Part shown: positions 1-55,399 of the stretch, one piece after another
How the letters are laid out: every line of letters begins with the position of its first letter
Position numbering within the stretch: position 1 is the stretch's first letter
Assembly: GCA_963783425.1 (NCBI GenBank)
Contig: CAWANO010000010.1
Location: 613,472-677,471 of the forward strand
Length of the DNA stretch: 64,000 nt
Direction of reading: 5' to 3'
Source: an uncultured delta proteobacterium
GTDB lineage: Bacteria; Desulfobacterota; Desulfobacteria; Desulfobacterales; QNYZ01
Translations under genes and position numbers: made by a program
The notes under the pieces: generated by a model
The model's database searches: none
What the model was told of the DNA's origin: nothing
Seen by the model: only the letters and a program-made list of their open reading frames with translations

Positions 1-1
1 T

Positions 2-1306
2 GGATCGCTACCGCTTAAAAAACTCGATCGACAGGTGGCAGGGTATCGCTATGTGCCCTTTAATCGATTTGCCTCAACGGCTGTTCGGGATTTGATCTTC
101 CGGGAGGCCAGTGCGGACTTTGTATTGTGTATGGACTCGCATGTGCTGCTGTACCCGGGTGCCATAAAAAATCTGATTCAATATTATGACCAGAATCCAC
201 AAACCCCCGATTTGTTGCACGGCCCCATGTTAAGCGACAGCCAGAAAACGGTTTCCACTCACTTTGAACCGACTTGGGGCGCCGGGATGTATGGTCAATG
301 GGGAACAGACATTCGGGGTGAAGATTCAAACGGAGATCCCTTTGAAATCCAGATGCAGGGGCTCGGCCTATTTACCTGCCGCAAGGTCTCCTGGCCTGGA
401 TTTAACTCACGATTCTCCGGCTTTGGCGGTGAAGAAGGGTACATACACGAAAAATTCCGCCAACAGGGCGGAAAGGTGATCTGCCTTCCCTTTCTTCGCT
501 GGCTGCACCGCTTTTTAAGACCGATGGGGGTCCAATATCCCCTAAACTGGAAAGATCGGATTCGTAATTACTACATCGGATTTACCGAGCTGGGTATGGA
601 CACCTCGGAAATCGAAGCCCATTTTTCAGAACATCTAGGAAAGAATGCCTTTACAGCCCTAAAAGATGAAATCACGGCCGAAATCGAAAGCCCATTTTTC
701 TATTTTGATGCCATCTACTGTATCAATCTTGAAAGTGATGTCGGGCGTTGGGAAAAAATAATGCGCCGCTTCGAGCGCCTCGGTATTGACCATCGCATCC
801 GTCGATTCAGGGCCGTTGAAACACCGGGGAACCACCACATCGGCTGCGCCTTGTCCCATCGGAGCATCATTGCCGAAGCTCGATGGTTGGGATTAAAAAA
901 TGTGTTGGTTTTTGAGGATGACGCTGTTTTCTTAAAAGATGCGCTAAATCTGATGGAAAGAACCATCGCGGAGTTGAAAAAAAAAGATTGGACCCTCTTT
1001 TACCTGGGCGGCCATCGCTGGGAAGCGAACCACCCTCTGGCGCCGGGATGTCAACACCTGCGCCGTCCCGACCATCGGCTAACCTGTACGCATGCGCTGG
1101 CCTACCATCACACCATTTTTTCCAAAATATTGTCAGATCTTCCGGATGATATTCCAAGCATGCAACGATGGCTTGAAACAGAACACGGCATTGATCAATA
1201 CCTGCGTTATATCGACCGCCGTTTCCTTGCCGAACCGGTTGTTGCGTCACAACCCAGTATTCTCGAGCAGGAAGATCGAAAACACAAAAGCCTTTTCACC
1301 TTGTGA
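2..1306 (+). CDS. two-domain glycosyltransferase (GT2-like N-terminal half plus GT25-like C-terminal half); 5' end probably off-window
   Basis: The reading frame is open from nt 2 through the listed GTG at 35, so the gene probably starts upstream of the window. The C-terminal half opens with the GT25-style 'FYFDAIYCINLE...RW' segment and has the acidic 'VFEDDAVF' motif. The N-terminal half looks GT-A-like ('FVLCMDSHVLL'). Confidence 0.6.
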   Translation, partial: GSLPLKKLDRQVAGYRYVPFNRFASTAVRDLIFREASADFVLCMDSHVLLYPGAIKNLIQYYDQNPQTPDLLHGPMLSDSQKTVSTHFEPTWGAGMYGQWGTDIRGEDSNGDPFEIQMQGLGLFTCRKVSWPGFNSRFSGFGGEEGYIHEKFRQQGGKVICLPFLRWLHRFLRPMGVQYPLNWKDRIRNYYIGFTELGMDTSEIEAHFSEHLGKNAFTALKDEITAEIESPFFYFDAIYCINLESDVGRWEKIMRRFERLGIDHRIRRFRAVETPGNHHIGCALSHRSIIAEARWLGLKNVLVFEDDAVFLKDALNLMERTIAELKKKDWTLFYLGGHRWEANHPLAPGCQHLRRPDHRLTCTHALAYHHTIFSKILSDLPDDIPSMQRWLETEHGIDQYLRYIDRRFLAEPVVASQPSILEQEDRKHKSLFTL

Positions 1307-1339
1307 CCTGATTCCCTTGCAACGATTCACCAATGACCG

Positions 1340-2641
1340 TTGATCATTAACAACCATAAAAACATGCCTGAAAATATTTGCCGGACATACGGGCTGTCAG
1401 CCACAAGGCAAGCCCGCATGAGTGCCCACCATCAATATAAGCGCTTGTCCGATGCGAAAACAGGGTATTGTGGCGAAAATCTATCCAGGCGACTGCTCCG
1501 TTTGATGGGCCTGTGCGCAAGGCCTGTGGGCCATCGCGCCATGTATGATCAGCTTTCGCAACAAACCGCCGCCATTGATTCATGGAATGCACTGCCTCAC
1601 ATTGCCGAGCAGCACGGCATGGCCCCGCTGGTCTACTATCACCTGCGCGAGGCCGGGATTAATATTCCCACCAGTGTAAATCGAATCTTAAAAAGCGCCT
1701 ATATGACCCATCGTTTTGCCAATCGCCAACGGATGGCCGCGCTCGAGGAGATCGCCGCGGCTTATCGGCAGGCCGGCATTGAGATGCTCGCGCTAAAAGG
1801 TGCCGCCCTGGCCAATACCGTCTACCCCGTCACCGCGCTGCGCTGCATGTGCGATCTCGATCTGATGGTGGCCGACCGGAAGGCAGATGAGGCCCGCGAG
1901 CGCCTTAAAAAAATCGGGTTCAACATCCACGAAGAAGCCAGTGAGCAACCCCGGCCGCTCTCTCACCACTATCCCCCGTCCATACGCCGGCACAACGGTG
2001 TGGAGGTGATGGTCGAGCTGCATCACCACCTTTACAGCATTTCAAAACTGATACCGACCGTTACCCTCGATAGATTGCAGCCCGATGCCATTTCATTTGA
2101 TCTGGGAAACACCCGCATTGATACGTTGGGGCCGGAACAGATGCTATGGCACGCCTACATTCACGCTGTCGGCCGGCTTCAGCTGGTGGAACAGTTTCGA
2201 TTGATCCATGTGGCTGATCTGGTCGGGATCGTTGAAACCTATGCCGGCCGGATCGACTGGCAGCAATTCAAACATCGATACCCTCAGACCTATAACGCCC
2301 TATCGATGCTTCACATTTTTACGCCCTGGCCGGACCACATCAAGGCGATACTGCCCTTTGACACGCAGCGGTCATTCCCATTTAAGCACTTCCCGCGCCT
2401 GCCAAGGGCTATGGCGGTCAGCTCGAGAGACCGTCAATCATGGACGTTGCGCTTCATGATGGACATGGTGATGCCGCCCGACTGGTGGGCCTGCTTTTTC
2501 CAGGGAAGTGATCCGTGGAAATTCACCCTTTTCAAGCATCGGTTGGCGTATCCCGCCCGCCGGCTGACCGCTTTTGGCGGGAATTTTTCCGGGTTTTGTG
2601 TTAGGAAACTCTATCGAAGGTTTACGGCATTGAAACGCTGA
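1340..2641 (+). CDS. nucleotidyltransferase family protein (uncharacterised NTP_transf_5-like)
   Basis: 'AEQHGMAPLVYYHL...GIEMLALKGAALANTVYP...RCMCDLDLMVADRKADEARERLKKIGF' matches the pattern of the uncharacterised nucleotidyltransferase family that co-occurs with PqqD and HPr-kinase-like genes. The exact start is uncertain. Confidence 0.7.
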   Translation: MIINNHKNMPENICRTYGLSATRQARMSAHHQYKRLSDAKTGYCGENLSRRLLRLMGLCARPVGHRAMYDQLSQQTAAIDSWNALPHIAEQHGMAPLVYYHLREAGINIPTSVNRILKSAYMTHRFANRQRMAALEEIAAAYRQAGIEMLALKGAALANTVYPVTALRCMCDLDLMVADRKADEARERLKKIGFNIHEEASEQPRPLSHHYPPSIRRHNGVEVMVELHHHLYSISKLIPTVTLDRLQPDAISFDLGNTRIDTLGPEQMLWHAYIHAVGRLQLVEQFRLIHVADLVGIVETYAGRIDWQQFKHRYPQTYNALSMLHIFTPWPDHIKAILPFDTQRSFPFKHFPRLPRAMAVSSRDRQSWTLRFMMDMVMPPDWWACFFQGSDPWKFTLFKHRLAYPARRLTAFGGNFSGFCVRKLYRRFTALKR

Positions 2642-2679
2642 TTCTTGAACAACAATCATCTGGATTTGGACAACACCCC

Positions 2680-2970
2680 ATGACTTCGCCGGAATCAATC
2701 GCCTTAAACGATGTGCCCGACACCAACACCGGTTATCGCCTGGAAGAGTTTGACGGAGAACTGGTCCTCTATCACAGCACCGCCACCCAGGTGCTCTACC
2801 TCAACGAGACGGCGGCCCTGGTGTGGCGCTTGTGCGATGGCAAACGCACCGTGGAAACCATTTGTGCCCTCCTGAAAGAGGCCTATCCAAACACGGCCGA
2901 TCAAATCGAACACGATGTCGCCGCCACCGTGGCCGACCTGGTTCACTCGGGCGCGCTGACCCTGCGATGA
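2680..2970 (+). CDS. PqqD-family peptide-binding (RRE-type) protein
   Basis: This 96-aa protein contains 'LVLYHSTATQVLYLNETAALVWRLCDGKRTVETICALLKEAYP...IEHDVAATVADLVHSGAL', the typical PqqD winged-helix pattern. Its stop overlaps the next start (ATGA). Confidence 0.8.
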   Translation: MTSPESIALNDVPDTNTGYRLEEFDGELVLYHSTATQVLYLNETAALVWRLCDGKRTVETICALLKEAYPNTADQIEHDVAATVADLVHSGALTLR

Positions 2971-3860
2971 CCATTTCCGGCACCTGGACGGTCCAATTTG
3001 CCGGCTGCAAAGTAACGATCGCATGGCGGGGCGATGCCGCGCCTGCTATTCTCGGGTTTCTGTTTGGCACGCCAAATGGCACTGATGCCGATTCGGTCAT
3101 CGGGCATTTTCAAATTATTGCCGATACCGGGCAGCAGCAGTTCGAAATTTTTCAAAGTGGCCGCAGCATCTATGCTGATGCTTCAGCCGGCACGACCGCG
3201 GGCGTTTTATTGGATAAGGTGGTCACGGAGCTGGCGGGGGCCTGTTTGATGGGGCCGGTTTTTCATGCCGGCGCGCTGGTCACAAGGCGTGGTTTGGGGT
3301 TGCTTTTACCCGGTAATTCGGGCGCCGGCAAATCGACCCTGGCGGCCACGCTGACACAGAGGGGTTGGCGCTATCTAACCGACGAGCTGGTCTGTATCGC
3401 TGACGGCAGCGACACTATTCAGGGCTTTGCACGCCCGATACATCTCAAACACCCGGCAGACGGCATCTTTGCGCACCTTTGCCCCGCCAGCGACCGTCAA
3501 ATAAGCCCGGCGCCGGATGGCTGTATGATAAGCGCCCAGGGACTGCTCATCGACGCGGCCCTGCTCAACTCTCCCTGCCATGGTGGCCCTTCCCCCGCCG
3601 GCCTGATCGTCTTTCCCCAATTCGTACCGGAAGCAGCCTGCCATATTGAGCCGCTGACGCCGGCCATGGCCTGCGCCCGGCTGATGGGCGCGGTGGTCAA
3701 TGCCCGCAACCTTCGCGGCCATGGTTTGGAGGAAATATCGCGCATCGCTCGCCGGGTACCCGCCTATGCAATGCGTTTCGGCGATCTCGAGCATGGCGTT
3801 CAATCCATCGACGAATTGGCGGTTTCGCTCATCCCGGAAATCTCACCTTCGCTAAGGTGA
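2967..3860 (+). CDS. HPr kinase-related (HprK-like) P-loop kinase
   Basis: The ATG at 2967 overlaps the PqqD stop, so the track ORF beginning at 2823 is an out-of-gene extension. 'VFHAGALVTRRGLGLLLPGNSGAGKSTLAATLTQRGWRYLTDELV' resembles the HprK C-terminal catalytic domain with its Walker A motif. Confidence 0.7.
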   Translation: MTISGTWTVQFAGCKVTIAWRGDAAPAILGFLFGTPNGTDADSVIGHFQIIADTGQQQFEIFQSGRSIYADASAGTTAGVLLDKVVTELAGACLMGPVFHAGALVTRRGLGLLLPGNSGAGKSTLAATLTQRGWRYLTDELVCIADGSDTIQGFARPIHLKHPADGIFAHLCPASDRQISPAPDGCMISAQGLLIDAALLNSPCHGGPSPAGLIVFPQFVPEAACHIEPLTPAMACARLMGAVVNARNLRGHGLEEISRIARRVPAYAMRFGDLEHGVQSIDELAVSLIPEISPSLR

Positions 3861-3930
3861 AACCTATTCTGTTTTTTTGGAAAGATTTCATGAACTTTCC
3901 GGGATAGATAGTCCCACCTGGGTTCTTCGA

Positions 3931-5019
3931 TCAATCCAGGTCGTCGTTCTCTTGCATGCCAGATACCGCCGGCAGAATATCCTTGAAGGCCACGGCGTAG
4001 ATATCCCACACCGTCACAAACAGCGCCGCCACCACCGGCCCGATGATAAAGCCCAAAATACCAAACATCATCAGGCCACCCAAGGTGGCAAAGAGGATCA
4101 TCAGATCATGCATTTCGGTGTCACGACCCACCAGACGCGGCCTAAGAAAATTATCGAGACTGCCCACCACCAGGCCGCAAAAAATCGCCAGGCCGACACC
4201 TTTCAACCAACTGCCCGAGGCCGCCAGAATAATCGCTGCCGGGACCCAAACCAGGGCCGATCCGATACCGGGTATGATCGAGAGCACTGTCATTATGGTT
4301 CCCCAAAAAACGGCACTGGGAATACCCGCCACGGCAAAGGCCGTCCCGGCCAAAGTCCCTTGCAGAACCCCGATCACGGCCGTACCCTTGATGGTGGCGC
4401 GGGTGACCGATGTAAAGCGGTTGAGCATCCGGCGTTCATCCTGATCTTCCAGCGGCAGGTAATAAAGAATTTTGTTGAGCAGGCGCTCGCCGTCGGACAA
4501 AAAGAAAAACATTGTGTAGAGGAAAATAAATAGCATGAACACGAAGTTCACCGTGCCCAGTGTGGCCGAGGAGAGGCCGTCGATTAAAAAGCGGCTGGTG
4601 GCCCCTACCGCCTCGCCCGCTTTTTGGTAGATCACATCGCGGTAGGGTTCTATTTGCTCATAGAAGGGAAGGGAGCTTAAGAACTCGGAAAGGTGGGCCG
4701 GCTCGGCGATCTGTGCCTGAACCCAGGGCGTCACCGTTTGGCCCACCTTGATGGCCTGGCTGGTGACGATGCCCAGGAGAAAACCGGCAGGAATCAACAG
4801 TACGAAAACATACACCAGCAAAGTGGCCAGCGACGCCAAGCCCCGGTTCCCCCCCAGCCACCGTACCAAACGGCTGTACAAGGGGTGCGCCAGGGACGAA
4901 AAAATACCGGCCATCAGCACGGCCATCAAAAACCTTCGGATCATCACCACGAACACTGCCGAAATAAAGAGAACCAAAATCAGCAGCACCAGTTTGCCGA
5001 CCGCTTCGCGTTTCATCAA
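3931..5019 (-). CDS. AI-2E family transporter (PerM/UPF0118)
   Basis: It is a multi-pass membrane protein. 'GTAVIGVLQGTLAGTAFAVAGIPSAVFWGTIMTVLSIIPGIGSALVWVPAAIIL' is the conserved AI-2E core. The start overlaps the upstream gene's stop (ATGA at 5016-5019). Confidence 0.85.
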   Translation of the reverse strand: MMKREAVGKLVLLILVLFISAVFVVMIRRFLMAVLMAGIFSSLAHPLYSRLVRWLGGNRGLASLATLLVYVFVLLIPAGFLLGIVTSQAIKVGQTVTPWVQAQIAEPAHLSEFLSSLPFYEQIEPYRDVIYQKAGEAVGATSRFLIDGLSSATLGTVNFVFMLFIFLYTMFFFLSDGERLLNKILYYLPLEDQDERRMLNRFTSVTRATIKGTAVIGVLQGTLAGTAFAVAGIPSAVFWGTIMTVLSIIPGIGSALVWVPAAIILAASGSWLKGVGLAIFCGLVVGSLDNFLRPRLVGRDTEMHDLMILFATLGGLMMFGILGFIIGPVVAALFVTVWDIYAVAFKDILPAVSGMQENDDLD

Positions 5020-5558
5020 TCACGCTCCAATCGCCGATCAATGGCCGTGTTGATCCTGTGGGCGACGGCCTCGGCCGTTATCAATTGTGATGCACTGGTC
5101 ATGGCATCTACGCCGCTGACACCGCTTTGCCAGTTGGGGTTGGCGGCCGTCACCAGCATAATGACGCGCTCTTTATGATCGGTCTGGCTTAAAAACTGCG
5201 CCACGCTGGGTCGCAGATGCCAGGCGAAACAGCTGTTTAAAACGACCACGGCGCTATAGCTTGCGGCATCTTCATGGGGCAAATCGGTCACGTCGACGAT
5301 GCGGGTATAGATGGACGGCTCCTGCAAGTGAGCCAAAACCTGCTCCATCACGGCCTGCTTGTAGGGCGTCTGCTCCGTGGCGATAAGCACCTTGCGCGCG
5401 CTGTCGGGCGCGCCCATGATGCGGGTGTCTACAGGCGGTCGCAGGGCACATGCGCTGATGGCAAAAAGCAGCGCCAACACAACTGCCGCACCGGCACCCC
5501 TTCGGAATTGACACAACCCGCCCTGGGTCGCACGAAAGCCGCGTTGTGCGTAAGCCAT
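5016..5558 (-). CDS. putative lipoprotein, function unknown
   Basis: The internal ATG at 5558 gives a signal peptide with the lipobox 'LLFAISAC'. The longer track ORF (to 5732) would overlap the end of tolC. I recognise no domain; the alpha/beta pattern is flavodoxin-like at best. Confidence 0.5.
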   Translation of the reverse strand: MAYAQRGFRATQGGLCQFRRGAGAAVVLALLFAISACALRPPVDTRIMGAPDSARKVLIATEQTPYKQAVMEQVLAHLQEPSIYTRIVDVTDLPHEDAASYSAVVVLNSCFAWHLRPSVAQFLSQTDHKERVIMLVTAANPNWQSGVSGVDAMTSASQLITAEAVAHRINTAIDRRLERD

Positions 5559-5718
5559 CTTAAGCCCCTCATTAAGAGAGCCTGTTTCAAAACGTTTCAG
5601 TTTGTCCAAGGTCAAGGATGGTGCCAATTTTAACCACAGGAATACTGCTCGTATTTCGAGGATTAAAATTGGCGCCAGACGCGAAGATTGGGCAAAATGG
5701 GACGTTTTGAAATTGGCT

Positions 5719-7122
5719 CTAAGGTTGTGCATAGTCGCTCAATATCTCGCCGGTTTCGACCTTGAGATCAAACCAGGCTTGACGCAAAGCCACCCGCGCC
5801 TGGGCCAACCGGCCACGGGCCGTGTTGAGGTCGCGTTGGGCTTCGTTAAGCCGCACCAGGGTGCCCTCGCCGGATTTGTACTCCAGTTCCACCAGATCCC
5901 GGTTCTGGGTCACCAAGACAGCATTTTCGGTCTGCAAGTTCACCTGTTGCTGCGCCTCGATCACCCGGGCGATGGCCGTGCGCACATCGGCCGACACCCT
6001 GATTTGCAACCGGTTCAGCTCGCTTTCGATCTCCCGGCGCGCAGCCCTCGCCTCGCCGATGCGGGCCCGGTCGAGACCGCCGGCGAAAAGGTTATAATTG
6101 AGTTCCAGGCCGATGGAGCTGCCGAACTCCTCGCTCTCGAAAGCCGGGTCTTCCTGGCGTAAACCATTGACCCCCGCCAGCAGGTGCACCGATGGGTAGT
6201 AGCCTGAACGGGCCACCTGCACGGCGGCTTTAGCTTGCTGAACCGCCCAGAGGGCCTGGGCGATGTCGGGCCGGTTTTCGGCCGCCAGTGATACCGCCGC
6301 GGCGGTATCGGGCGTCGCCATATCAGTGGCGGTTTCGTCGGTTAGTGGTGCCAGCTGCAATGCGGGTGACAAATTCACATCCTCGAGACCCAACACCGCC
6401 GCCAGGGTGTAGAGCGAGGTTTCCCAAGCGCGTCGTGCCTCAATCAGAAACGACTGGGCTGAGTTGACACGAACCTTGAAGTTGAGGGTGTCGCTCAAAG
6501 GGCCCACCCCCACTTGATAGCGCGCCTGGGCGTCTTCGAGCTGCCGGCGATTGAAGCGATCGTCGGCTTCGGCGATTGCGATGGTCTCTTGGGCCAACAG
6601 CGCCCCGTAATAGGCCCGCGCCACGGCGGCCAGGATCAATCGCCGCGCTTCCCGGCTTCCGGCCTGGCTGCGCACCAGGCCAAATTGCGCCTCGGCCACG
6701 CGGAATTTGCGCGCGAAACCGTCAAAAGCCACCCAGGTGGCGTACAGTCCGGCATCGAAAATGTTGTCCGGGTCATCGATTTGCGCATTGGGGTCAAACA
6801 GCCGCGCCTGCAACAGTTGCTGCTCATAGGATCGATCCGAGAGCCACACCCGGTTTCCGGCCGCGTTGGCATCCAGGCGCGGCCAATATTGGGATCGCGT
6901 CTGCAGCAACTGCTGTTCGGCCTGGGCCACGCGCGCCCGCGCTGCCGCCAGGGAGGGGTTGGCGGCCAGGGCCAGCCGGCAGGCCGTATCGAGGTCGAGG
7001 AGCGTTATCTGGCTTAAGTCGCCAGTTTCATTCGCTGATTCGGAAGCGGTCTGCGCACTGGCTGCCGTGGCCACCAGCCAGACGGCCATAAGAATCAATA
7101 GATCAAAAGTTCGTTTTCGCAT
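5719..7122 (-). CDS. TolC-family outer-membrane efflux protein
   Basis: It has a signal peptide ('LILMAVWLVATAASAQT'). Duplicated coiled-coil/barrel repeats carry typical OMF motifs ('YWPRLDA', 'YYPSVHL', 'LNEAQRDL'). Confidence 0.85.
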   Translation of the reverse strand: MRKRTFDLLILMAVWLVATAASAQTASESANETGDLSQITLLDLDTACRLALAANPSLAAARARVAQAEQQLLQTRSQYWPRLDANAAGNRVWLSDRSYEQQLLQARLFDPNAQIDDPDNIFDAGLYATWVAFDGFARKFRVAEAQFGLVRSQAGSREARRLILAAVARAYYGALLAQETIAIAEADDRFNRRQLEDAQARYQVGVGPLSDTLNFKVRVNSAQSFLIEARRAWETSLYTLAAVLGLEDVNLSPALQLAPLTDETATDMATPDTAAAVSLAAENRPDIAQALWAVQQAKAAVQVARSGYYPSVHLLAGVNGLRQEDPAFESEEFGSSIGLELNYNLFAGGLDRARIGEARAARREIESELNRLQIRVSADVRTAIARVIEAQQQVNLQTENAVLVTQNRDLVELEYKSGEGTLVRLNEAQRDLNTARGRLAQARVALRQAWFDLKVETGEILSDYAQP

Positions 7123-7788
7123 GGCAATGTCCTGTTATGAATTGTCGCTTGGCTCAGCCATAAACCGGGATATCAACCGGTCGCGTCGTTGCTGTTTATA
7201 GAATCGCGCTTGCGGTCCCGCACCGATATATAACGCAATCCGCTGCAACCGCGGTCCCAATGGCGCAGGTGGCGCCCGCACAGATTCAAACCGCTCGGAA
7301 TAATCAACAGGCTCGATATCAGGATGATCCCGGACAGCCTTGTGAAGGAAACCATCGCGGGCGGCGCACACGAACGGAACATGGTTGCCACAATAATGAA
7401 AATTCCCTCAATCGCCAAGGGAAATTCCACCGAAAGTCGTTAATATGGCTAAAAATGAAATGGGACGAAATTAAGGGGGATGTCGATCCGATTTCCGGTT
7501 TTTTTCACTTGCGCTTTCTGGATAACCGCGAAAGCAAATTCGATCTTTCACCCAACCGTTAAGGCTTTACCAGAGCCGGCGCGCCAGCGCAAGCCGGGCG
7601 TGTAGGCGCCCGCCGCGCCTGTGGGCCGCCAGTAAAGCAACATCGCTTGACGTGGCAACCGCTCTATTTTACGATGACAATTGACGGCAGGCAGCCGTGC
7701 GGCGCGGGATTTTGAACCTGACAGTATACCCCCTGATCGATAGATCGTTTTCCGGTCAACCATCTTATTAGGAAAGGAGTGATCCGAT

Positions 7789-8943
7789 ATGAGCGTTTCC
7801 TCGTTTAGTGCCATGGAACTGTTTGATTGGCTTTGCGACCCCGCCAAGATCGATTTTCTGCTGCTCGATGTGCGCAACCAAGAGGAGTTCGGGCGCTTTA
7901 AGGTCGAAGGGCCCTTTGATTTCGAGATGCTCAACGTGCCCTATATGGAGTTTATCGAGCATGAAAAAGAGAGCGTGGCGCGGGTGCCCAAACGCGACAA
8001 GATCCGCGTGGTCTGCGCCAAGGAGGGGTCCTCCAGGTTCGTGGCCGAGATTCTCGAAAACCACGGCTACAGCGACCTGGCCAACCTGCAGGTGGGCATC
8101 AAGGCCTGGGGCAACCTGCTGGCGCCCATCAAGGTGGCCGAGACCGGCACCTACGGCCTCTACCAGTTCCGGCGCCCGGGCAAAGCTTCGTGCAGCTACG
8201 CGCTGACCTGCGGCAAGGAGATGATGGTCTTTGATCCGGCCAAGAACATCGCCGCCTACCAGCGCTTTGCCGACGAGCGCGGCCTGGCCATCATCAAGAC
8301 CGTCGAAACCCACCGCCAGGCCGACTATATCTCCGGCAGCCCGGCCCTCAACAAAACTACCGGGGCCGAGATCATCGCGCCCACGGGCGATTTCGAGGAG
8401 GCGCGCTTTCGCTACACCCCGGCCGTGGACGGCGAACCGATCGCCTTCAGCCAGGCGGGGCCCGCGGTGCGCATCGTGCACACCCCCGGCCACACCCCGG
8501 GCAGCACCTCCTACCTGATCGACAACCGATACCTCATCACCGGCGACACGGTTTTTATTTTCAGCATCGGCCGGCCCGACCTGGGCGGCATGGCCGATGC
8601 CTGGTCGAAAATGCTCTTTGATACCGTTCAGAACAAGATTCTCAAGCTCGACGACGCCACCGTCATTTTACCCGGCCACTACATGGACTGGAAAGAGGCC
8701 AATGATGACCTGATCTTCGCCGAAACCATCGGCAAGATCAAAGAGATCAACCAGGAGATTTACAACATCGACACGGAAGCCGATTTTTATCAATACATCA
8801 AGGCCAATATGCGCAAACAGCCCGAGGAGTATGCCAAGATCCGTCAGATCAACGCCGGCCTGATCGAGGTCGACCCCGAAGAACAGGATATCATGGACCT
8901 GGGCAAGAACGAGTGCGCCGCCAGCGCAATGGCACAAAGCTAA
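7789..8943 (+). CDS. rhodanese domain plus MBL-fold metallo-hydrolase (persulfide-dioxygenase-like)
   Basis: AAGGAG RBS lies upstream. The N-terminal rhodanese domain has the Cys loop 'VVCAKEGSSRF'. The MBL core includes 'ETHRQADYISG' and 'VHTPGHTPGS'. Confidence 0.8.
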   Translation: MSVSSFSAMELFDWLCDPAKIDFLLLDVRNQEEFGRFKVEGPFDFEMLNVPYMEFIEHEKESVARVPKRDKIRVVCAKEGSSRFVAEILENHGYSDLANLQVGIKAWGNLLAPIKVAETGTYGLYQFRRPGKASCSYALTCGKEMMVFDPAKNIAAYQRFADERGLAIIKTVETHRQADYISGSPALNKTTGAEIIAPTGDFEEARFRYTPAVDGEPIAFSQAGPAVRIVHTPGHTPGSTSYLIDNRYLITGDTVFIFSIGRPDLGGMADAWSKMLFDTVQNKILKLDDATVILPGHYMDWKEANDDLIFAETIGKIKEINQEIYNIDTEADFYQYIKANMRKQPEEYAKIRQINAGLIEVDPEEQDIMDLGKNECAASAMAQS

Positions 8944-11492: not shown

Positions 11493-12402
11493 ATGATGTC
11501 ATCGCCCACACCACAACCACCCAAGCCAACGGTTACCGACGCCCGCCGCACTATAAAGTGGGTGCTGATAGTGCTGGTGCTGATGGCCGTGGCCGCCTTT
11601 TTCATATTGCCCCTCAACAGCTGTATCGAGGGTTGCGATTGTGACGAGGAGATCGTCGCGGCTATCGTGGAATTCGGTGAGCCCGACGAGGAAAACCGCA
11701 CCCTTGAAGACAATCAATTTACCGCCGAGTATATTTTCTACGACGCCGAGATCAAAAAAACCTTCGTCTGGGGCAAGGATGTCGACGTTTGCTGCTTGAA
11801 AAGCACTGAAAGATATGCGCCCGAAGATGAGGACACAGAAGATCCGGGCGATGGTGATGAGGACACAGAAGATCCGGGCGATGGTGATGAGGACACAGAA
11901 GATCCGGGCGATGGTGATGAGGACATCAGAAGATCCGGGCGATGGTGATGAGGACATAGAAGATCCGGGCGATGGTGATGAGGACACAGAAGATCCGGGC
12001 GATGGTGATGAGGACACAGAAGATCCGGGCGATGACCCTGTTGCTGAAGCACAGGTTGCCGAAGCCAAGCCGGGCGAAGAGATTGTCATCGAGCTCAAGG
12101 GGGTCGACCGCTCACCGGATTCGGAAACGGTTATGCAGGATGTGATGGCACTAGGGGTATCGGTGTTGCGGGAAGGGCTGACCTACTACCTCGAGACGCT
12201 ACCCGAAGAGGGCCAAATAACCTACCCCGCAGAGGTGAGCGAGGCCGACCTGCCCTATCAGCTCTCCGATCGCTTTGTGGAGTACACGGCGCCGGAACCG
12301 TTTACAGAGAACGATTCGTTCGAGTTCAGTGTCAGCGACGAGGCGGGGGAGGTCGAAAACCGGTCGATCGCTAAAACCGTAACCATTCAACCGGCTGAGT
12401 GA
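11493..12402 (+). CDS. membrane-anchored acidic repeat protein (EDTEDPGDGD repeats), split by a 1-nt insertion in repeat copy 4
   Basis: AAGGAGG RBS lies upstream. The TM anchor is 'WVLIVLVLMAVAAFFILPL'. Track ORFs 11493..11948 and 11815..12402 are the two halves, in frames 0 and +1. Confidence 0.55.
11829..12035 (+). repeat. 30-bp tandem repeat, about 7 copies (GAGGACACAGAAGATCCGGGCGATGGTGAT)
   Basis: Copies start at 11829, 11859, 11889, 11919 (31 bp, extra T at 11926), 11950 (C>T variant), 11980 and 12010 (truncated). Confidence 0.95.
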
Positions 12403-22804: not shown

Positions 22805-23923
22805 ATGCAAATCACCATCAATCGGGATGACATTATTCAGGTTTTGGCCAATGTGCAGGGCTTAACCAACCGCAAAAGCAATCTGGCCATTACGGCCAAT
22901 GTGTTGATTCGGACCGACAGTGAAGGGGTCCGCATAACGGCCACCGATCTTGAGACCGGATTCGAAGGTTACTATCCCGCCGTGGTGGGTCGTGAAGGCG
23001 CCGTTACCATCAATGCCCGAAAACTGTTCGAGATCGTGCGCGATTTTCCTATTCAGGAGATCAAACTGGAGGAGATCAAAAACGGTTGGATTGAAATCGG
23101 CAGCGGCAAGGTGATGTATCACATTGTAAGCCTTAATCCGGATGAATTTCCTGACTCGCCCGAGATCGATGATGTCCGCTCTTTCGATATGGAAAGCGGC
23201 CATTTCAAAAAGATGATCGACAAAACCGTTGGGATTGTGGGTGAAAGTGACGACAAGCGCGCTCACATCATCGGTAACTGCCTGGAGAAGGTCAAAGAGG
23301 GCGGAAAAAATATCGTGCGCATGGTGGCCACTGATGGCGGGCGGTTGTCGAAAATGGATTGTGTATATGGTGACGGCGTCGATCTACCTCTGGACAACCC
23401 CGTGCTTATTCCCAAAAAAGGGCTGATGGAGGTTTCAAAATTTCTCAGGCGTGACGGCATCGTAAATCTCGGCCTCAAAGACAATAAATTTGTCGTCAAA
23501 CAGGAGCGCGAAACCTTGATCGTGCGACTGCTGGAAGGCGTCTTTCCCGATTATGCCAAAGTGGTTTGGAGAGATATTCAGAGCGATATCCTGGTGCCCA
23601 AGCAACCCCTTTTCATGATGGTCAAACGCATGTCGATCCTGGCCACAGAGACCTATCGCGCCGTAAAATTCCGGTTTGAAGATGACTGCCTGCATATCGA
23701 CTCAACCAACCCTGACATCGGCGACTCCAAGGAACACATGGAGATTGAATTTAAGCGTAAACCGTTGGAGATGGCCTTTAATCCACGGTTTTTTATCGAC
23801 GCGCTTAATGTCATCGATGAAGAAAATGTGATTTTGAACATCTCCAATGAATCCAGGCCTTGTCTGATCGAGGCCGAAAATGACAAATCCTATCTGGGCG
23901 CTATCATGCCCATGCACGTTTAA
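22805..23923 (+). CDS. dnaN: DNA polymerase III subunit beta (sliding clamp)
   Basis: It is 372 aa with the typical clamp pattern: 'LAITANVLI', 'ATDLE', 'MVATDGGRLS' and 'PDY..V'. It ends '...YLGAIMPMHV'. Confidence 0.95.
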   Translation: MQITINRDDIIQVLANVQGLTNRKSNLAITANVLIRTDSEGVRITATDLETGFEGYYPAVVGREGAVTINARKLFEIVRDFPIQEIKLEEIKNGWIEIGSGKVMYHIVSLNPDEFPDSPEIDDVRSFDMESGHFKKMIDKTVGIVGESDDKRAHIIGNCLEKVKEGGKNIVRMVATDGGRLSKMDCVYGDGVDLPLDNPVLIPKKGLMEVSKFLRRDGIVNLGLKDNKFVVKQERETLIVRLLEGVFPDYAKVVWRDIQSDILVPKQPLFMMVKRMSILATETYRAVKFRFEDDCLHIDSTNPDIGDSKEHMEIEFKRKPLEMAFNPRFFIDALNVIDEENVILNISNESRPCLIEAENDKSYLGAIMPMHV

Positions 23924-54200: not shown

Positions 54201-55399
54201 ACACTTTTTTAAATGTCGGCATGAACGAACAGATCGCCCGCGGCCTGGCCGCCCAGACCCGCAATGTCTGGTTCGCTTGGGACAACTACCGCCGCTACCT
54301 GCAGTGCTACGGCATGTCGCTGGGCATGACTCGCGACCACTTCGATTCGATCATCAGAGGCTACAAGGGCCAGCTGAAAATCCCCCTGAAACGCTTCATG
54401 ACCGGCGAGCAGATGCAAACCTTGGCTCTCAAGTACAAAGAGAGCATCGAGGCGGCCGGGCACAAGGTGCTCGAAGAACCGCTGGATCAGCTCTTTATGG
54501 CCATCGAATGCGTGTTTGATTCGTGGTACAGCGCCAAGGCCAACACCTACCGCCGTATCATGGACATCTCCGACGACTGGGGCACAGCGGTCACCGTTCA
54601 GCATATGGTCTACGGCAACCTTTCCCGGCAATCCGGCTCGGGTGTGGTGATGACCCACAACCCCCGCTGGGCAGGTGACACCCTGCGCTTGTGGGGCGAT
54701 TTTACGATCGGTAACCAGGGCGAAGACGTGGTGGCGGGGCTGGTGAGCACGCTGCCTATCTCCATCACCCAGCAAGAGATCGAGATGCGTGACACCGACA
54801 TCACGCTCGAAACCCACTTCCCGGAGATCTACGAGGCGCTCAGGCAGTGGGCGATCCTGCTGACCGAGCATCAGGGATGGAGCCCCCAGGAGATCGAGTT
54901 CACCTTCGAGGGCCCCAAGGCCTCCCAGCTATACGTGCTGCAGTGTCGTGATATGTCGGTGCGTGAGCACAAGATCGCGCGGCGCTTTCCCGAGGGTGCC
55001 CTAAAGATCGAAAATTTTCTGGGCAACGGCGTTGGCGTGAGCGGCGGCGCCATGAGCGGCCGGGCGGTCTTTGAACTAAAGGAGATCGAACGCTGGCATC
55101 AGGCTGAGCCCGACACCGACCTGATTTTGCTGCGTAACGACACCGTTCCCGACGATATTCGCGAAATATACGCCGCCGACGGGTTGCTCACGGCCCGGGG
55201 CGGCATGACCTCCCACGCCGCGGTGGTGGCCAACCGCCTGGGCAAGACCTGCGTGGTGGGGTGCGACAACCTCTTTTGCGACGAGGACCGGCACTGGTGC
55301 ACCCTCGGCGACCAGAAGATTCAATCGGGCGACTTTATCAGCATCGACGGCTACGGCGGCGCCGTCTATCGGGGCCGTGTGGCCGTGGATGGGGATTAA
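51215..55399 (+). CDS. large protein: ~890-aa unknown N-terminal region plus a PPDK-type ATP-grasp and phospho-histidine swivel domain, with no PEP/pyruvate-binding barrel
   Basis: From about nt 53900 it reads 'GNKGYNLVKLLENDIPVPPGF', 'LFSVRSGASISQPGMMDTFLNVGMN', 'YRRIMDISDDWGTAVTVQHMVYGN' and 'LLTARGGMTSHAAVVANRLGKTCVVGC'. The protein ends 63 aa after the TSH histidine. The start codon (TTG at 51215 or ATG at 51251) is uncertain. Confidence 0.7.
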   Translation: MTIKSKALTENLMEHQVLVSIDPKYLPLQAVLSKYYGIMEGANNFLTELSHPYRNWQFIVQESRSYALDYFHLFVSHPLGPEAATLFVDIYFEALAKSAQEAVREDACNHLLLFLQKMIRSAGENFPRFKPVLDAAFERISHQPENAFFLFVRGYYQIKRLAEAYLAASQRSPQGYAAINTLLARYYRQTYAYWRAEEDPGNWFSRRRNDSEGLTAREAFFKPVSHERLAAAQRRLAAIEKQAEAPTLQRLEQLLTLPSFGQIVEAYRRIPGHLAALGQQSGKGNQWKAIFLFHIMNISGLAVIHEEALREINRTLSWLIAHEPYRNVRLLIENTFAILKSRADQFPTTALSCVQNMGMGVYKTDERDLVNVFIDEIIDLGFQVPRIGGVGDDWQIKSNSAHLLNIRAWLELIKLNPRWSLRLLSGLIIHLAVAGVLIKDTDLFFRDITELLNSRIDPVYNQIKQLMRLLPVFFNDIGAEGDLRDISTEIDELTQRKDILIHFLRKQSHVESSNRTLSLIMGVIEFWRTGEKAPLAAMVPPRVFEQIRTRGRYIDGVRRALRHMESQGIHLPDDLLTREAAQIEALLGQAEGVGVQDARRVVLLATFYKLLDQKYSLGFARLNAYVDQLKPEVSIHLGRLKKALKISDTRPRLVAMLEYLELLKEMILSEEHFEVREDIYKKRHFAIDIPSMYGSYHERKFDAMGLMLRLESQVNVLFETLVAEIDLKLITRATFYDIHAVLSLFARALRCDGMPVVEFERLLSFLYHSLQVTGFTFTQYLDIFKGFARAVRNIINDCFHNIHEQNLAKILATLPRSEWLPKYQDFGPQRSDDEKARHRVSEIFFRDRIAATLGLQQLDQFLTRILNTLYHQFQELPRAKSRELLRYDHQRAVAPLNKVDARIPGIIHLGNKGYNLVKLLENDIPVPPGFIITTEVFKYREIIKAYPPALEDLKAQMLHHIKGLEGKLNKRFGDPEHPLLFSVRSGASISQPGMMDTFLNVGMNEQIARGLAAQTRNVWFAWDNYRRYLQCYGMSLGMTRDHFDSIIRGYKGQLKIPLKRFMTGEQMQTLALKYKESIEAAGHKVLEEPLDQLFMAIECVFDSWYSAKANTYRRIMDISDDWGTAVTVQHMVYGNLSRQSGSGVVMTHNPRWAGDTLRLWGDFTIGNQGEDVVAGLVSTLPISITQQEIEMRDTDITLETHFPEIYEALRQWAILLTEHQGWSPQEIEFTFEGPKASQLYVLQCRDMSVREHKIARRFPEGALKIENFLGNGVGVSGGAMSGRAVFELKEIERWHQAEPDTDLILLRNDTVPDDIREIYAADGLLTARGGMTSHAAVVANRLGKTCVVGCDNLFCDEDRHWCTLGDQKIQSGDFISIDGYGGAVYRGRVAVDGD

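What the first reader, a model, noticed from the sequence alone, without database searches (positions are those of the whole stretch)
1..3860. Glycosyltransferase, nucleotidyltransferase, PqqD and HPr-kinase-like cassette truncated by the window edge (peptide-modification type)
Four co-directional genes are tightly packed. There is a 33-nt gap, a 38-nt gap, then an ATGA overlap between PqqD and the kinase.

PqqD-type proteins are peptide-recognition elements in RiPP pathways. HPr-kinase-like kinases and NTP_transf_5 proteins are known companions, both in phosphorylated lasso-peptide clusters and in the TIGRFAM-defined 'HPr-rel-A' neighbourhood.

Here the cassette is led by a two-domain glycosyltransferase (GT2-like plus GT25-like). 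This suggests a glycosylated and/or phosphorylated peptide or glycan product.

No precursor peptide, lasso cyclase or protease is visible in the window. The remainder, if any, lies upstream off-window.
Basis: partly seen in the sequence, partly recalled or inferred. Interest (0 to 1): 0.65.

Follow-up and report, generated by a model that had tools for sequence, protein, structure and literature searches.

The report
Truncated phospho-glyco peptide modification gene cassette
The window edge cuts through a gene cluster that very probably phosphorylates and sugar-coats a ribosomally made peptide; it is not a lasso-peptide cluster, and it belongs to a widespread family nobody has characterised, whose relatives act on peptides carrying an export-signal-like leader and a mucin-like tail.

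Summary
The four co-directional genes are real, but HprK is 0.4 bits below Pfam's cut-off. They are a GT2+GT25 glycosyltransferase (edge..1306), NTP_transf_5 (1340-2641), PqqD (2680-2970) and an HprK-like kinase (2967-3860).

An 89%-identical metagenome contig (L078) shows what lies off-window. The GT there is an 806-aa protein with an N-terminal pseudokinase domain. Upstream lie a 193-nt spacer with a 28-aa ORF and an ABC-2 exporter.

No lasso cyclase or B2 protease occurs in the window, in L078, or in 59 related loci. They occur only beside distant, outgroup kinases.

About 36 related loci carry an undescribed precursor family next to the genes. Its leader is twin-arginine-signal-like: RRxxLK..., an invariant WxxP (the known RRE-binding motif), then PAHA-Q-x-Ser.

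Five of the six other loci with this GT have short cores that are 52-97% Ser/Thr/Pro. The sixth fuses a Thr/Pro-rich tail to PqqD. The GT model resembles collagen galactosyltransferase and mucin-type GalNAc-transferases.

Best reading: an RRE-guided pathway that phosphorylates and O-glycosylates a peptide, working like the Bacillota LPP and paeninodin tailoring enzymes. It fails their membership tests and the HPr-rel-A tests. The window lineage's own substrate was not seen.

The parts
1..1306 (+). 3' 1.3 kb of a glycosyltransferase gene, with a GT2-like and a GT25-like GT-A domain. By comparison with L078, about 373 codons are missing, including an N-terminal pseudokinase domain.
   Evidence: ORF and translation. 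Pfam GT25 39.4 bits, GT2 22.6 bits. 89% aa identity to L078 GT residues 374-807. AF2 model pLDDT 93. Foldseek top hits are COLGALT1 (E 5e-15), then ppGalNAc-transferases.
134..142 (+). Asp45-Ser46-His47 (DxH metal/UDP-sugar motif) of the first GT-A domain.
   Evidence: D45 and H47 are invariant in 74 homologues. Sequence VLCMDSHVLL. That DxH is the motif of mucin-type GalNAc-transferases is my own knowledge.
914..922 (+). Glu305-Asp306-Asp307 (DxD-type motif) of the GT25-like domain.
   Evidence: D307 is invariant, and E305 and D306 are at least 90% conserved, in 74 homologues. Sequence VLVFEDDAVF. PDB sequence match to COLGALT1 over residues 279-358.
1340..2641 (+). NTP_transf_5 nucleotidyltransferase-fold enzyme (PsmN/LppN-like). 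The start codon is uncertain (1340, 1364, 1418 or 1541).
   Evidence: Pfam PF14907 150.8 bits. Alignment with the N proteins of Paenibacillus lasso clusters. No solved relative by sequence.
1853..1861 (+). Asp172-Leu-Asp174, the predicted metal-binding DxD of the nucleotidyltransferase.
   Evidence: The motif is conserved across the window NT, L075, L017, L045 and the lasso-cluster N proteins L063/L068. The equivalent D134/D136 of PsmN are essential (PMC6993621).
2680..2970 (+). Discrete PqqD-type RiPP recognition element (96 aa).
   Evidence: Pfam PqqD 63.1 bits. PDB sequence matches to PqqD, TfuB1, TbiB1 and 9x8z_B. 52% identical to the discrete PqqD of L075 and 49% to the PqqD domain fused to the L005 GT.
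2967..3860 (+). HprK-like P-loop Ser kinase (297 aa), translationally coupled to PqqD through the ATGA overlap.
   Evidence: Hpr_kinase_C 32.9 bits. TIGR04352 93.5 bits. H100, GxGKST 119-124 and D139/E140 are invariant. AF2 pLDDT 89.7, fold matches PEPCK and HprK/P.
3312..3338 (+). Walker A P-loop GNSGAGKST of the kinase. Catalytic His100 lies at 3264-3266 and Asp139-Glu140 at 3381-3386.
   Evidence: Invariant columns in alignments A1 and A2. Residues read from the sequence.

Best explanation
**What it is.** Window 1-3860 is the 3' two-thirds of a compact biosynthetic cluster that post-translationally modifies a ribosomal peptide. It is not a lasso-peptide cluster.

**Shown here.**
- Four co-directional, tightly packed genes encode a GT2+GT25 glycosyltransferase, a PsmN/LppN-type nucleotidyltransferase-fold enzyme, a PqqD recognition element and an HprK-type kinase. 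Catalytic motifs are intact in the GT, the nucleotidyltransferase and the kinase.
- The same set recurs in distant lineages, partly as gene fusions.
- In an 89%-identical relative the GT carries an N-terminal pseudokinase domain. Upstream lie a small ORF and an ABC-2 exporter.

**Inferred mechanism.**
1. PqqD binds a leader motif on the precursor. In related loci this is an invariant WxxP embedded in a twin-arginine-signal-like leader.
2. PqqD presents the precursor to the kinase. The kinase phosphorylates the nearly invariant Ser three residues after the PAHA signal-peptidase-like site. This parallels Ser3 of the LPP core.
3. The NTP_transf_5 enzyme elaborates that phosphate, as in the PsmN-dependent addition of hexose to phospho-Ser.
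4. The GT2+GT25 enzyme O-glycosylates a short Ser/Thr/Pro-rich core. One domain would initiate in the manner of a GalNAc-transferase, and the GT25 domain would extend.
5. The product leaves the cell through the ABC-2 exporter and/or the Tat pathway.

**Not seen.** The substrate gene of this particular lineage has not been seen. It lies off-window or elsewhere in the genome.
For: **Genes and motifs.**

**Recurrence of the gene set.**
- L075 has the same gene order (GT 57%, NT 32%, PqqD 52%, kinase 39% identical), plus a precursor and a second PqqD upstream.
- L076 has a PqqD-GT fusion, L005 a GT-PqqD fusion and L077 a kinase-GT fusion.
- L083, a GT homologue I chose from the bottom of the listed hits, again has GT, PqqD, kinase-like and NT genes.
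- 21 of the 120 best GT homologues carry a fused PqqD domain.

**Precursors.**
- A leader family was found next to the trio in about 36 loci. R6, W29, P32, P40 and A43 are invariant.
- It was re-found independently in loci fetched through GT homology (51-56 bits).
- Ser stands at +3 in 82 of 95 sequences.
- All five GT loci with a separate leader ORF have 18-70-aa cores that are 52-97% S/T/P. The 31 leader ORFs in loci without the GT have larger cores (all but one of 84-422 aa) that are 18-43% S/T/P.

**Phylogeny.** The window kinase groups with kinases from GT-plus-leader loci. Lasso-associated kinases form the outgroup.

**Structure.** The GT model's nearest structures are protein-modifying GTs: COLGALT1 and ppGalNAc-T2, -T4, -T10 and -T12.

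**Upstream context.** L078 is 89.2% nt identical and shows an ABC-2 permease, a 28-aa ORF and the pseudokinase-GT. The contig of P0002 (kinase 68% identical) has the same layout.

**Biochemical precedents.** PsmK and PsmN (PMC6993621). LppK phosphorylates Ser3 and depends on the RRE LppB (PMC13381572).
Against: - No precursor is visible for this lineage. The leader HMM finds nothing in the 64-kb window (best 11.4 bits) or in L078.
- The 28-aa ORF of L078 has no RR, WxxP or PAHA motif. It is not S/T/P-rich and is known from one sequence only.
- 12 of the 27 related loci with at least 4 kb on both sides also lack a detectable leader ORF.
- NT is only 32% identical to that of L075.
- The role of NTP_transf_5 is not established biochemically. 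LppN was inactive in the heterologous host, and PsmN's chemistry is unresolved.
- In L083 the RR segment lies inside a PqqD fusion rather than at an N-terminus. That sits badly with a pure Tat-signal role.
- All mechanistic steps are inferred from homology and context.
Confidence: 0.62

Rival explanations
1. It is the tailoring part (kinase, nucleotidyltransferase, B1) of a paeninodin/pseudomycoidin-type phosphorylated lasso-peptide cluster. On this reading the cyclase, B2 protease and precursor lie just off-window.
For: The trio HprK-like kinase, PqqD and NTP_transf_5 is exactly the accessory set of paeninodin-like lasso clusters (PMC6993621). A canonical example was retrieved here: L063 has C, K, B1, B2, N, C, K and D genes.
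Against: Asn-synthase-like cyclase and transglutaminase-like B2 seeds from L063 hit only loci L058-L073, whose kinases are distant. They hit nothing in the 64-kb window, in L078 or in L002-L057 and L074-L077. L078 shows that the 1.7 kb upstream holds an ABC-2 permease and a spacer. The contig of P0002 shows ABC_tran and ABC2 upstream. Lasso-associated kinases form the outgroup in the tree.
Confidence: 0.04
2. It is a glycan, LPS or capsule biosynthesis cassette with no peptide substrate. The GT2+GT25 enzyme would build an oligosaccharide, and the kinase and nucleotidyltransferase would decorate a sugar or lipid. PqqD would be incidental.
For: GT25 is described by Pfam as an LPS biosynthesis family. 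A bacterial beta-1,4-galactosyltransferase is among the fold matches. ABC-2 exporters typically move polysaccharides (my own knowledge). Sugar-nucleotide genes lie next to some relatives: dTDP-sugar isomerase in L075, epimerases in L077 and L083.
Against: PqqD is conserved and translationally coupled to the kinase. PqqD is fused to this GT in 21 of 120 homologues. Leader-bearing ORFs lie directly upstream of the GT in 5 of 5 loci, with S/T/P-rich cores. One locus fuses PqqD to the leader and core. The best fold matches are protein-modifying GTs.
Confidence: 0.1
3. It is a true member of an already defined system: either the Bacillota LPP family (linear polyphosphorylated peptides) or Haft's HPr-rel-A system.
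For: The K, B and N homologues of LPP are present. TIGR04352 is the best-scoring curated model for the kinase, and TIGR04353 appears among the PqqD hits.
Against: The kinase scores 93.5 against a cut-off of 200 on TIGR04352, and PqqD scores 21.1 against 35 on TIGR04353. All related kinases tested score 79-94. No SipW-like peptidase or MsbA-like exporter was seen; the exporter is ABC-2 type. LPP is reported as restricted to Bacillota with a YxxP...FETxxS leader. The relatives here come from Desulfobacterota, Chloroflexota, Gammaproteobacteria and Acidobacteriota and use a WxxP...PAHAQxS leader.
Confidence: 0.08
4. It is an orphan or decaying cassette. This lineage would have lost its precursor, and the enzymes would be idle or re-purposed. 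The degenerate kinase domain fused to the GT would be a sign of decay.
For: No leader-type precursor occurs in the window or in L078. The fused kinase-like domain has lost H100, the GKST Ser/Thr, E140 and other invariant residues.
Against: All four visible genes have intact reading frames and intact catalytic motifs. They are conserved at 89-94% identity across several metagenome samples without frameshifts. Pseudo-enzyme domains are often functional scaffolds (my own knowledge).
Confidence: 0.1

Closest known systems
Linear polyphosphorylated peptides (LPP) of Bacillota: LppA/K/B/S/D/N (Popov et al., Nat Commun 2026, PMC13381572)
   Same: Both have a discrete PqqD-type RRE, an HprK-like kinase and an NTP_transf_5 enzyme, and neither has a lasso cyclase. 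Precursors of relatives carry an aromatic-xxP RRE motif. A Ser lies at position +3 after a signal-peptidase-type cleavage site: LPP has FET|AQS, this family has PAHA|QxS. Both are often surrounded by glycosyltransferases.
   Different: No SipW-like peptidase or MsbA-like exporter was seen here; the exporter is ABC-2 type. The leader is twin-arginine-signal-like with Trp, not Tyr. A dedicated GT2+GT25 glycosyltransferase, fused to a pseudokinase, PqqD or kinase, is part of the core. The hosts are not Bacillota. The kinases are very distant: matches to Paenibacillus kinases cover only about 70-95 residues at 30-37% identity.
Tailoring enzymes of phosphorylated lasso peptides: paeninodin PadeK, pseudomycoidin PsmK/PsmN (PMC6993621)
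   Same: The enzyme families are the same. The P-loop and acidic pair of the kinase and the DxD of the nucleotidyltransferase are conserved. The precedent is Ser phosphorylation followed by PsmN-dependent addition of hexose to the phosphate.
   Different: There is no cyclase or B2 protease. The kinases form a separate clade. The presumed target Ser lies near the leader/core junction rather than at the C-terminus.
HPr-rel-A system (TIGR04352 HprK-related kinase A, TIGR04353 PqqD_rel_X)
   Same: TIGR04352 is the best-scoring curated model for the kinase. The pairing of a PqqD with a kinase is the same.
   Different: Both proteins score far below the curated cut-offs (93.5 against 200; 21.1 against 35), so they form a sister group rather than members. 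The full-text search found no occurrence of the TIGRFAM or system names.
Collagen galactosyltransferase COLGALT1/GLT25D1 and mucin-type polypeptide GalNAc-transferases
   Same: The GT has two tandem GT-A domains like COLGALT1 (Foldseek E 5e-15 over about 470 columns). The single-domain matches to ppGalNAc-T2, -T4, -T10 and -T12 have E 1e-6 to 1e-5. DxH and DxD motifs are conserved. Associated precursors have mucin-like Ser/Thr/Pro-rich cores.
   Different: The enzyme is bacterial and cytoplasmic, with no lectin domain. Sequence identity is 15-18%. Acceptor and sugar are unknown. Targeting appears to be through an RRE or a pseudokinase domain rather than a lectin domain.
RRE-glycosyltransferase fusions flagged by RRE-Finder (PMC7470986, PMC12710340)
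   Same: These are PF00535 glycosyltransferases fused to RRE domains and listed as candidate new RiPP classes.
   Different: They were only listed, not analysed. Those passages mention no kinase or nucleotidyltransferase, and the 2025 paper no twin-arginine leader.

Membership tests
Phosphorylated (paeninodin-type) lasso peptide cluster | Asn-synthase-like macrolactam cyclase (C protein) in the cluster | tested here: not met
   Jackhmmer with two cyclases from L063 hit only L058, L062, L063, L065, L066, L068-L070, L072 and L073. It hit nothing in the six-frame translation of the 64-kb window, nor in L001-L057 and L074-L077. L078 (fetched later; Pfam and leader/kinase HMMs only) shows an ABC-2 permease and the GT upstream.
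Phosphorylated (paeninodin-type) lasso peptide cluster | Transglutaminase-like leader peptidase (B2) | tested here: not met
   The B2 seed from L063 (Pfam Transglut_core3 66.7 bits) hit only lasso-type loci.
Phosphorylated (paeninodin-type) lasso peptide cluster | Discrete B1 RRE (PqqD) plus HprK-like kinase | tested here: met
   PqqD 63.1 bits, Hpr_kinase_C 32.9 bits, TIGR04352 93.5 bits.
LPP (linear polyphosphorylated peptides) | LppK-, LppB- and LppN-type genes together without a cyclase | tested here: met
   The family definition comes from PMC13381572.
LPP (linear polyphosphorylated peptides) | Archaeal-type signal peptidase I (SipW-like LppS) | tested here: not met
   None of the eight genes in window 1-8943, nor the genes of L078, L075-L077 and L083, has a signal-peptidase Pfam family. 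The region further upstream of the window cannot be seen.
LPP (linear polyphosphorylated peptides) | MsbA-like ABC exporter (LppD) | tested here: not met
   The exporter next to the cluster in L078 and in the P0002 contig is ABC-2 type (PF12698/PF01061 plus ABC_tran).
LPP (linear polyphosphorylated peptides) | Precursor with a YxxPxVLxHQxIxFETxxS leader | tested here: inconclusive
   No precursor was found in the window. Relatives use RRxxLK...WxxP...PAHAQxS instead. The lineage's own precursor is unseen.
HPr-rel-A system (TIGRFAMs) | Kinase at or above the TIGR04352 cut-off (200 bits) | tested here: not met
   93.5 bits. Five related kinases score 79-94 bits.
HPr-rel-A system (TIGRFAMs) | PqqD at or above the TIGR04353 cut-off (35 bits) | tested here: not met
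   21.1 bits.
GT25 / COLGALT1-like tandem GT-A glycosyltransferases | GT25 domain above the Pfam threshold with a conserved DxD, and a two-GT-A-domain fold | tested here: met
   39.4 bits against a cut-off of 24. E305, D306 and D307 are conserved. PDB sequence hit to COLGALT1 at E 1.6e-6. It is the top Foldseek hit, E 5e-15.
Unnamed family delineated here (NT-PqqD-kinase with RR...WxxP...PAHAQxS precursors) | Adjacent NTP_transf_5, PqqD and kinase genes, with the kinase inside the non-lasso clade | tested here: met
   The window kinase groups with those of L005, L075 and L076.
Unnamed family delineated here (NT-PqqD-kinase with RR...WxxP...PAHAQxS precursors) | Leader-bearing precursor gene within a few kb | tested here: not met
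   The leader HMM gives nothing above 11.4 bits in the window and nothing in L078. The region beyond 1.7 kb upstream and the rest of the genome are not testable with these tools.

The most novel reading that the evidence does not exclude
The cassette would belong to a large, unrecognised class of bacterial pathways. In these, a PqqD-type recognition element reads a motif (WxxP) built into a twin-arginine export signal and holds the substrate in the cytoplasm. While it is held, a kinase and a nucleotidyltransferase phospho-decorate the Ser at +3 of the future mature N-terminus. In the GT2+GT25 subclass, a COLGALT1/GalNAc-T-like enzyme also lays down mucin-type O-glycans on a Ser/Thr/Pro-rich tail. 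Only then would the bulky product be exported by Tat, or by an ABC-2 pump, and cut by signal peptidase. On this reading the RRE acts like a Tat proofreading chaperone, and bacteria make ribosomal mucin-like phospho-glycopeptides.
Probability: 0.3. Interest if true: 0.85.

Novelty: new variant of a known kind. Interest (0 to 1): 0.62.

Why it matters
RRE-guided phosphorylation of peptides was known only as a decoration of lasso peptides and, since 2026, in the Bacillota LPP family. The final products and functions of those systems are still unknown.

This cassette shows that the same kinase/RRE/nucleotidyltransferase engine is widespread outside Bacillota. The kinase profile finds 3,305 clusters (at 50% identity) at E <= 1e-30.

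It is coupled to a dedicated protein-type glycosyltransferase and to precursors with an export-signal-like leader. That gives three things:
- a concrete, testable precursor motif for genome mining;
- a candidate bacterial route to mucin-like glycopeptides;
- cultured or well-assembled organisms in which to test what NTP_transf_5 enzymes actually do. One example is Spiribacter roseus (P0288); the L075- and L076-type clusters are others.

For the window itself, the practical message is that the cluster is cut by the edge. Its substrate must be sought on the full 1.09-Mb contig.

Tried and rejected
**Attempts to extend the window upstream.**
- Exact-protein look-ups for PqqD and the kinase returned only short contigs.
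- The genome-contig scan did not contain the species; the best match was 41% identical.
- Two metagenome scans found nothing. One used the kinase alignment, the other a degenerate DNA pattern for YRYVPFNRFA.
- The 9.2-kb contig of P0002 has a gene table but no DNA, so its 44-aa ORF could not be read.
- L082 starts only 64 nt before the GT gene.

**Search for a precursor in the window.**
- The leader HMM, a WxxP...PxHA regular expression and a scan for S/T/P-rich windows found nothing credible.

**The 28-aa ORF of L078.** I considered it as a precursor but could not validate it. It has no leader motif, no nearby promoter-like or terminator-like site, no unusual RNA structure (z = 0.04) and no second sequence for comparison.

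**Other dead ends.**
- Rfam found nothing in the window.
- The promoter and terminator scan of 1-5200 was uninformative.
- Literature searches for the TIGRFAM names, and for RRE plus twin-arginine plus kinase plus glycosyltransferase, returned nothing relevant.
- The first attempt to scan genomes with the 48-sequence kinase alignment failed because the alignment was too divergent.

**AI-2E/TolC genes.** I rejected the idea that the downstream AI-2E/TolC genes belong to the system. They are syntenic only in close relatives and are absent from L075-L077 and L083.

Full report
**1. The observation**

ORF listing and direct reading confirm four co-directional genes on the + strand.
- An ORF open at the window edge ends at 1306.
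- The second runs 1340-2641 (TTG start), the third 2680-2970 and the fourth 2967-3860.
- The gaps are 33 nt and 38 nt, and there is an ATGA stop/start overlap.

Pfam gives the following scores.

| Gene | Pfam family | Bits | Cut-off |
|---|---|---|---|
| GT | Glyco_transf_25 | 39.4 | 24 |
| GT | Glycos_transf_2 | 22.6 | 23.3 |
| NT | NTP_transf_5 | 150.8 | 31.2 |
| PqqD | PqqD | 63.1 | 23.4 |
| Kinase | Hpr_kinase_C | 32.9 | 33.3 |

The GT2 domain is cut by the window edge, which explains its marginal score. The best NCBIfam match for the kinase is TIGR04352 HprK_rel_A at 93.5 bits, against a cut-off of 200. TIGR04353 scores 21.1 for PqqD, against a cut-off of 35.

The kinase call is secure despite the marginal Pfam score.
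- H100, G119, G121, K122, T124, D139 and E140 are invariant in 48 homologues.
- An AlphaFold model (pLDDT 89.7) matches ATP-dependent PEPCK and HprK/P.

The start of the NT gene is uncertain. Candidates are TTG 1340 and ATG 1364, 1418 and 1541. The conserved sequence begins near residue 50-60, and another pipeline called the homologue from the position equivalent to 1541.

Downstream, the cassette faces a convergent minus-strand operon. It holds an AI-2E transporter (3931-5019), a 238-aa protein (5016-5732) and a TolC-like protein (5719-7122).

**2. What lies off-window**

The source is a 1,091,574-nt contig held by NCBI and ENA. The tools did not serve it. A cluster look-up for PqqD led to L078, an ENA contig of 4,886 nt. 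L078 aligns to window 1-3173 at 89.2% nucleotide identity and extends 1,712 nt further upstream.

In L078 the GT gene encodes 806 aa.
- Residues 374-807 are 89% identical to the window fragment.
- Residues 1 to about 290 are a paralogue of the discrete kinase: 29% identity to it, and 166 bits against the kinase-family HMM.
- This domain has lost residues that are invariant in active members. H100 is Leu, GKST is GKAL, TDE is SDR, RP is GG and NARN is NSGR. I read it as a pseudokinase.
- A Ser/Thr/Pro-rich linker follows, then the GT2 and GT25 domains.

Upstream of the GT lies a 193-nt spacer. It holds a 28-aa ORF (431-517, MNLFRVKAPQGLSGSTATAHCLSQPSML, preceded by AAGGGG). Before that is the 3' end of an ABC-2 permease gene (PF12698 50 bits, PF01061 35 bits).

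The contig of P0002, whose kinase is 68% identical, has the same layout. Only its gene table is available, with no DNA. The order there is ABC_tran, ABC2_membrane, a 44-aa ORF, a 756-aa GT, a GT29-NTP_transf_5 fusion, PqqD, the kinase, then a convergent AI-2E gene.

The full cluster is therefore most likely: ABC-2 exporter, small ORF, pseudokinase-GT2-GT25, NT, PqqD, kinase.

**3. Not a lasso cluster**

A canonical paeninodin-type lasso cluster came up among distant hits. L063 (Paenibacillus sp. CF384) has C, K, B1, B2, N, C, K and D genes. I used its cyclases and B2 as jackhmmer seeds against six-frame translations of everything held.
- They hit only L058-L073, whose kinases match the window's only over the P-loop region.
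- They hit nothing in the 64-kb window, nor in L001-L057 and L074-L077.
- L078 was fetched later and was screened with Pfam and the leader and kinase HMMs. Its upstream part holds an ABC-2 permease and the GT, not lasso genes.

In a neighbour-joining tree the lasso-associated kinases are the outgroup. The window kinase (with L001 and L074) sits in a clade with L005, L075 and L076.

**4. The conserved module and its precursors**

In loci fetched through kinase homology, the order NT-PqqD-kinase or PqqD-kinase-NT recurs in about 45 loci. They come from Chloroflexota (Anaerolineae), Desulfobacterota, Gammaproteobacteria, Betaproteobacteria and Acidobacteriota.

I clustered the neighbouring ORFs. 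The only other widely shared family was an unannotated protein present in 19 loci, rising to about 36 after an HMM search.

Its N-terminus is strongly conserved and its C-terminus is hypervariable.
- Consensus: xRRxxLKxLAAxGGAxxxxxLPxKWxKPxxxxGxLPAHAQxS.
- Invariant residues: R6, W29, P32, P40 and A43.
- The start matches the twin-arginine signal model TIGR01409, above its cut-off in two of four tested. One database member is annotated by NCBI as a Tat-signal protein.
- WxxPx[VIL] is the motif that discrete lasso and LPP RREs recognise, [Y/W]xxPx[L/V/I/F/A] (PMC13381572).
- P-A-H-A followed by Q is a textbook AxA signal-peptidase site (my own knowledge).
- Position +3 after it is Ser in 82 of 95 sequences and Thr in 10.

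In LPP the leader is cut by a signal-peptidase-I homologue before A-Q-S, and Ser3 is the polyphosphorylated residue. The parallel is close.

A profile search of 5.8 billion proteins found 63 further members of 54-85 aa, such as ...LPAHAQTSPPIEPESVDSTDQR and ...VPAHAQTSTTTP. One comes from the cultured Spiribacter roseus. Neither Pfam nor NCBIfam has a model for this family beyond the Tat signal.

**5. The glycosyltransferase links the window to a mucin-like subclass**

The window GT belongs to a tight family: 3,841 hits, with the best 120 at 50-57% identity. Of those 120, 21 carry a fused PqqD domain, one a fused kinase domain and three a methyltransferase.

I fetched four loci through GT homology alone.
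- L075 (P0121, the best hit) has the window's gene order: precursor, PqqD (150 aa), GT, NT, PqqD, kinase.
- L076 has a PqqD-GT fusion, PqqD, kinase and NT.
- L077 has PqqD, precursor, a kinase-GT fusion with intact catalytic residues, and NT.
- L083 (P0239, chosen from the bottom of the list) has an epimerase, GT, PqqD, a kinase-like gene and NT.

In L075, L076 and L077 the leader HMM, built earlier from other loci, found a precursor directly upstream of the GT at 51-56 bits. Together with L005 and L049, all five GT loci with a separate leader ORF have short cores of 18-70 aa made of 52-97% Ser/Thr/Pro. One example is DTSGTTTTTTPPPTTTSSTTSS....

By contrast, the 31 leader ORFs in loci without this GT have cores that are only 18-43% S/T/P. 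All but one are 84-422 aa long. The separation on composition is complete. If the 36 ORFs are treated as independent, chance would place the five richest cores in the five GT loci about 1 time in 377,000; the loci are related, so the true figure is weaker.

In L083 the PqqD ORF runs on, without a stop, into an RR/hydrophobic segment and ...AYAQAAGSGVTTTPAPTTTPISD. That is an RRE-precursor fusion lacking WxxP.

**6. Structure of the GT**

The window fragment models with pLDDT 93. The Foldseek results against the PDB are as follows.
- Human collagen hydroxylysine galactosyltransferase COLGALT1 comes first (E 5e-15, about 470 aligned columns, so both GT-A domains).
- Mimivirus R655 follows.
- Then come many mucin-type polypeptide GalNAc-transferases (T2, T4, T10, T12 and Toxoplasma T3; E 1e-6 to 1e-5 over about 205-250 columns).
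- A bacterial beta-1,4-galactosyltransferase also appears.

D45 and H47 (a DxH motif in domain 1) and E305, D306 and D307 (domain 2) are conserved in 74 homologues. Both domains therefore look catalytically competent. The output does not show which domain matched the GalNAc-transferases. I infer domain 1 from the DxH motif.

**7. The nucleotidyltransferase**

It has no relative of solved structure by sequence. The KGxxL...RxxxDLDLxV and VELH motifs align with the N proteins of Paenibacillus lasso clusters. In PsmN the equivalent Asp pair is essential for adding one or two hexoses to phospho-Ser, although the chemistry is unresolved. LppN was silent in the heterologous host.

**8. Mechanism and confidence**

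Shown:
- the gene content and intact motifs;
- the recurrence of the set and the gene fusions;
- the co-location with leader-bearing precursors in relatives;
- the association of the GT with S/T/P-rich cores;
- the absence of lasso enzymes;
- the upstream exporter in a close relative.

Inferred:
- PqqD binds WxxP.
- The kinase phosphorylates Ser+3.
- NT elaborates the phosphate.
- GT2+GT25 O-glycosylates the core.
- The product is exported by ABC-2 and/or Tat and cleaved after PAHA.

The weakest point is that this lineage's own substrate is unseen. The 28-aa ORF sits where precursors sit in L005, L049 and L075-L077, but it lacks every leader motif. Also, 12 of the 27 well-flanked related loci lack a detectable leader ORF.

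**9. Comparison with known systems**

The cassette works like LPP and like the paeninodin and pseudomycoidin tailoring steps. It fails their membership tests.
- It has no cyclase or B2.
- No SipW-like peptidase or MsbA-like pump was seen.
- The leader type in its relatives is different.
- The hosts are not Bacillota, whereas LPP and paeninodins are stated to be restricted to Bacillota.

It also falls below the curated HPr-rel-A cut-offs, as do all relatives tested.

RRE-glycosyltransferase fusions were listed as unexplored by the RRE-Finder papers. The searchable literature held nothing that joins RRE, kinase, NTP_transf_5, GT25 and a Tat-like leader.

The family is large: 3,305 representative clusters at E <= 1e-30 for the kinase profile.

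**10. Verdict**

- The peptide-modification reading is supported and sharpened.
- The lasso and HPr-rel-A associations are analogies, not memberships.
- I rate it a new variant of a known kind, of moderately high interest. The interest comes mainly from the family it reveals, because the window holds only a truncated, substrate-less part.

Noticed in passing
window 11493-12402 (+), repeat at 11826-12034: There is a 30-nt tandem repeat (6.9 copies, 97% matches) encoding acidic DEDTEDPGDG decapeptides. The reading frame appears to shift inside the array: ORF 11493-11948 and ORF 11815-12402 both read the repeat as the same peptide. This is either one secreted or membrane protein gene with a frameshift, a phase-variable array, or an assembly slip.
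   Followed up: partly
window 3931-7122 (-): Three minus-strand genes with overlapping ends converge on the cassette: an AI-2E family transporter, a 238-aa protein with a lipoprotein-like LFAISAC box and a weak flavodoxin-like hit, and a TolC-like outer-membrane protein. The AI-2E gene and the next ORF are syntenic in L001, L074 and the P0002 contig, but absent from the more distant GT loci. They are probably neighbours rather than part of the system.
   Followed up: partly
L083 8695-9156: The PqqD ORF (153 aa) continues without a stop into an RR/hydrophobic segment and a Thr/Pro-rich tail (...LDRRSILKSIGTAGAVAIPVVLTLTGAEQRAYAQAAGSGVTTTPAPTTTPISD). This is an apparent fusion of recognition element and precursor that lacks the WxxP motif. 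Because the RR segment is internal here, it also questions a purely Tat-signal role.
   Followed up: partly
L005 2-907: The NTP_transf_5 reading frame runs without a stop into the leader and the Thr/Pro-rich core (...PERRAALLKIL...VPAHAQMTGATSPPPPTTT...). This is either an enzyme-precursor fusion, an internal start, or a sequencing error.
   Followed up: no
L048, L053, L055, L056 (also L046, L052, L059): A separate kinase subclade occurs as kinase-NTP_transf_5 pairs, with no detectable PqqD gene and no leader-type ORF. It includes a Synechococcus MAG and Marisediminitalea aggregata. It may work without an RRE.
   Followed up: no
L001 and L074, versus window ~1850: Two independent metagenome contigs of close relatives (100% and 94% kinase identity) both break at the same point inside the NT gene, each leaving 264 codons. 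This suggests strain-level variability or a repeat just upstream that defeats assembly.
   Followed up: no
window 1-1500: The GT part of the cassette has lower G+C (0.46-0.51) than the NT, PqqD and kinase part (0.54-0.59) and the neighbouring genes (up to 0.67). This is compatible with the GT module having been acquired separately.
   Followed up: no
window 7789-8943 (+): A rhodanese domain is fused to a metallo-beta-lactamase-fold (glyoxalase II / persulfide-dioxygenase-like) domain.
   Followed up: no
window 22805-23923, 31284-33845, 51215-55399: According to names carried by cluster members, the window also holds dnaN, an 853-aa radical-SAM protein and an unusually long (1,394-aa) pyruvate,orthophosphate dikinase.
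   Followed up: no
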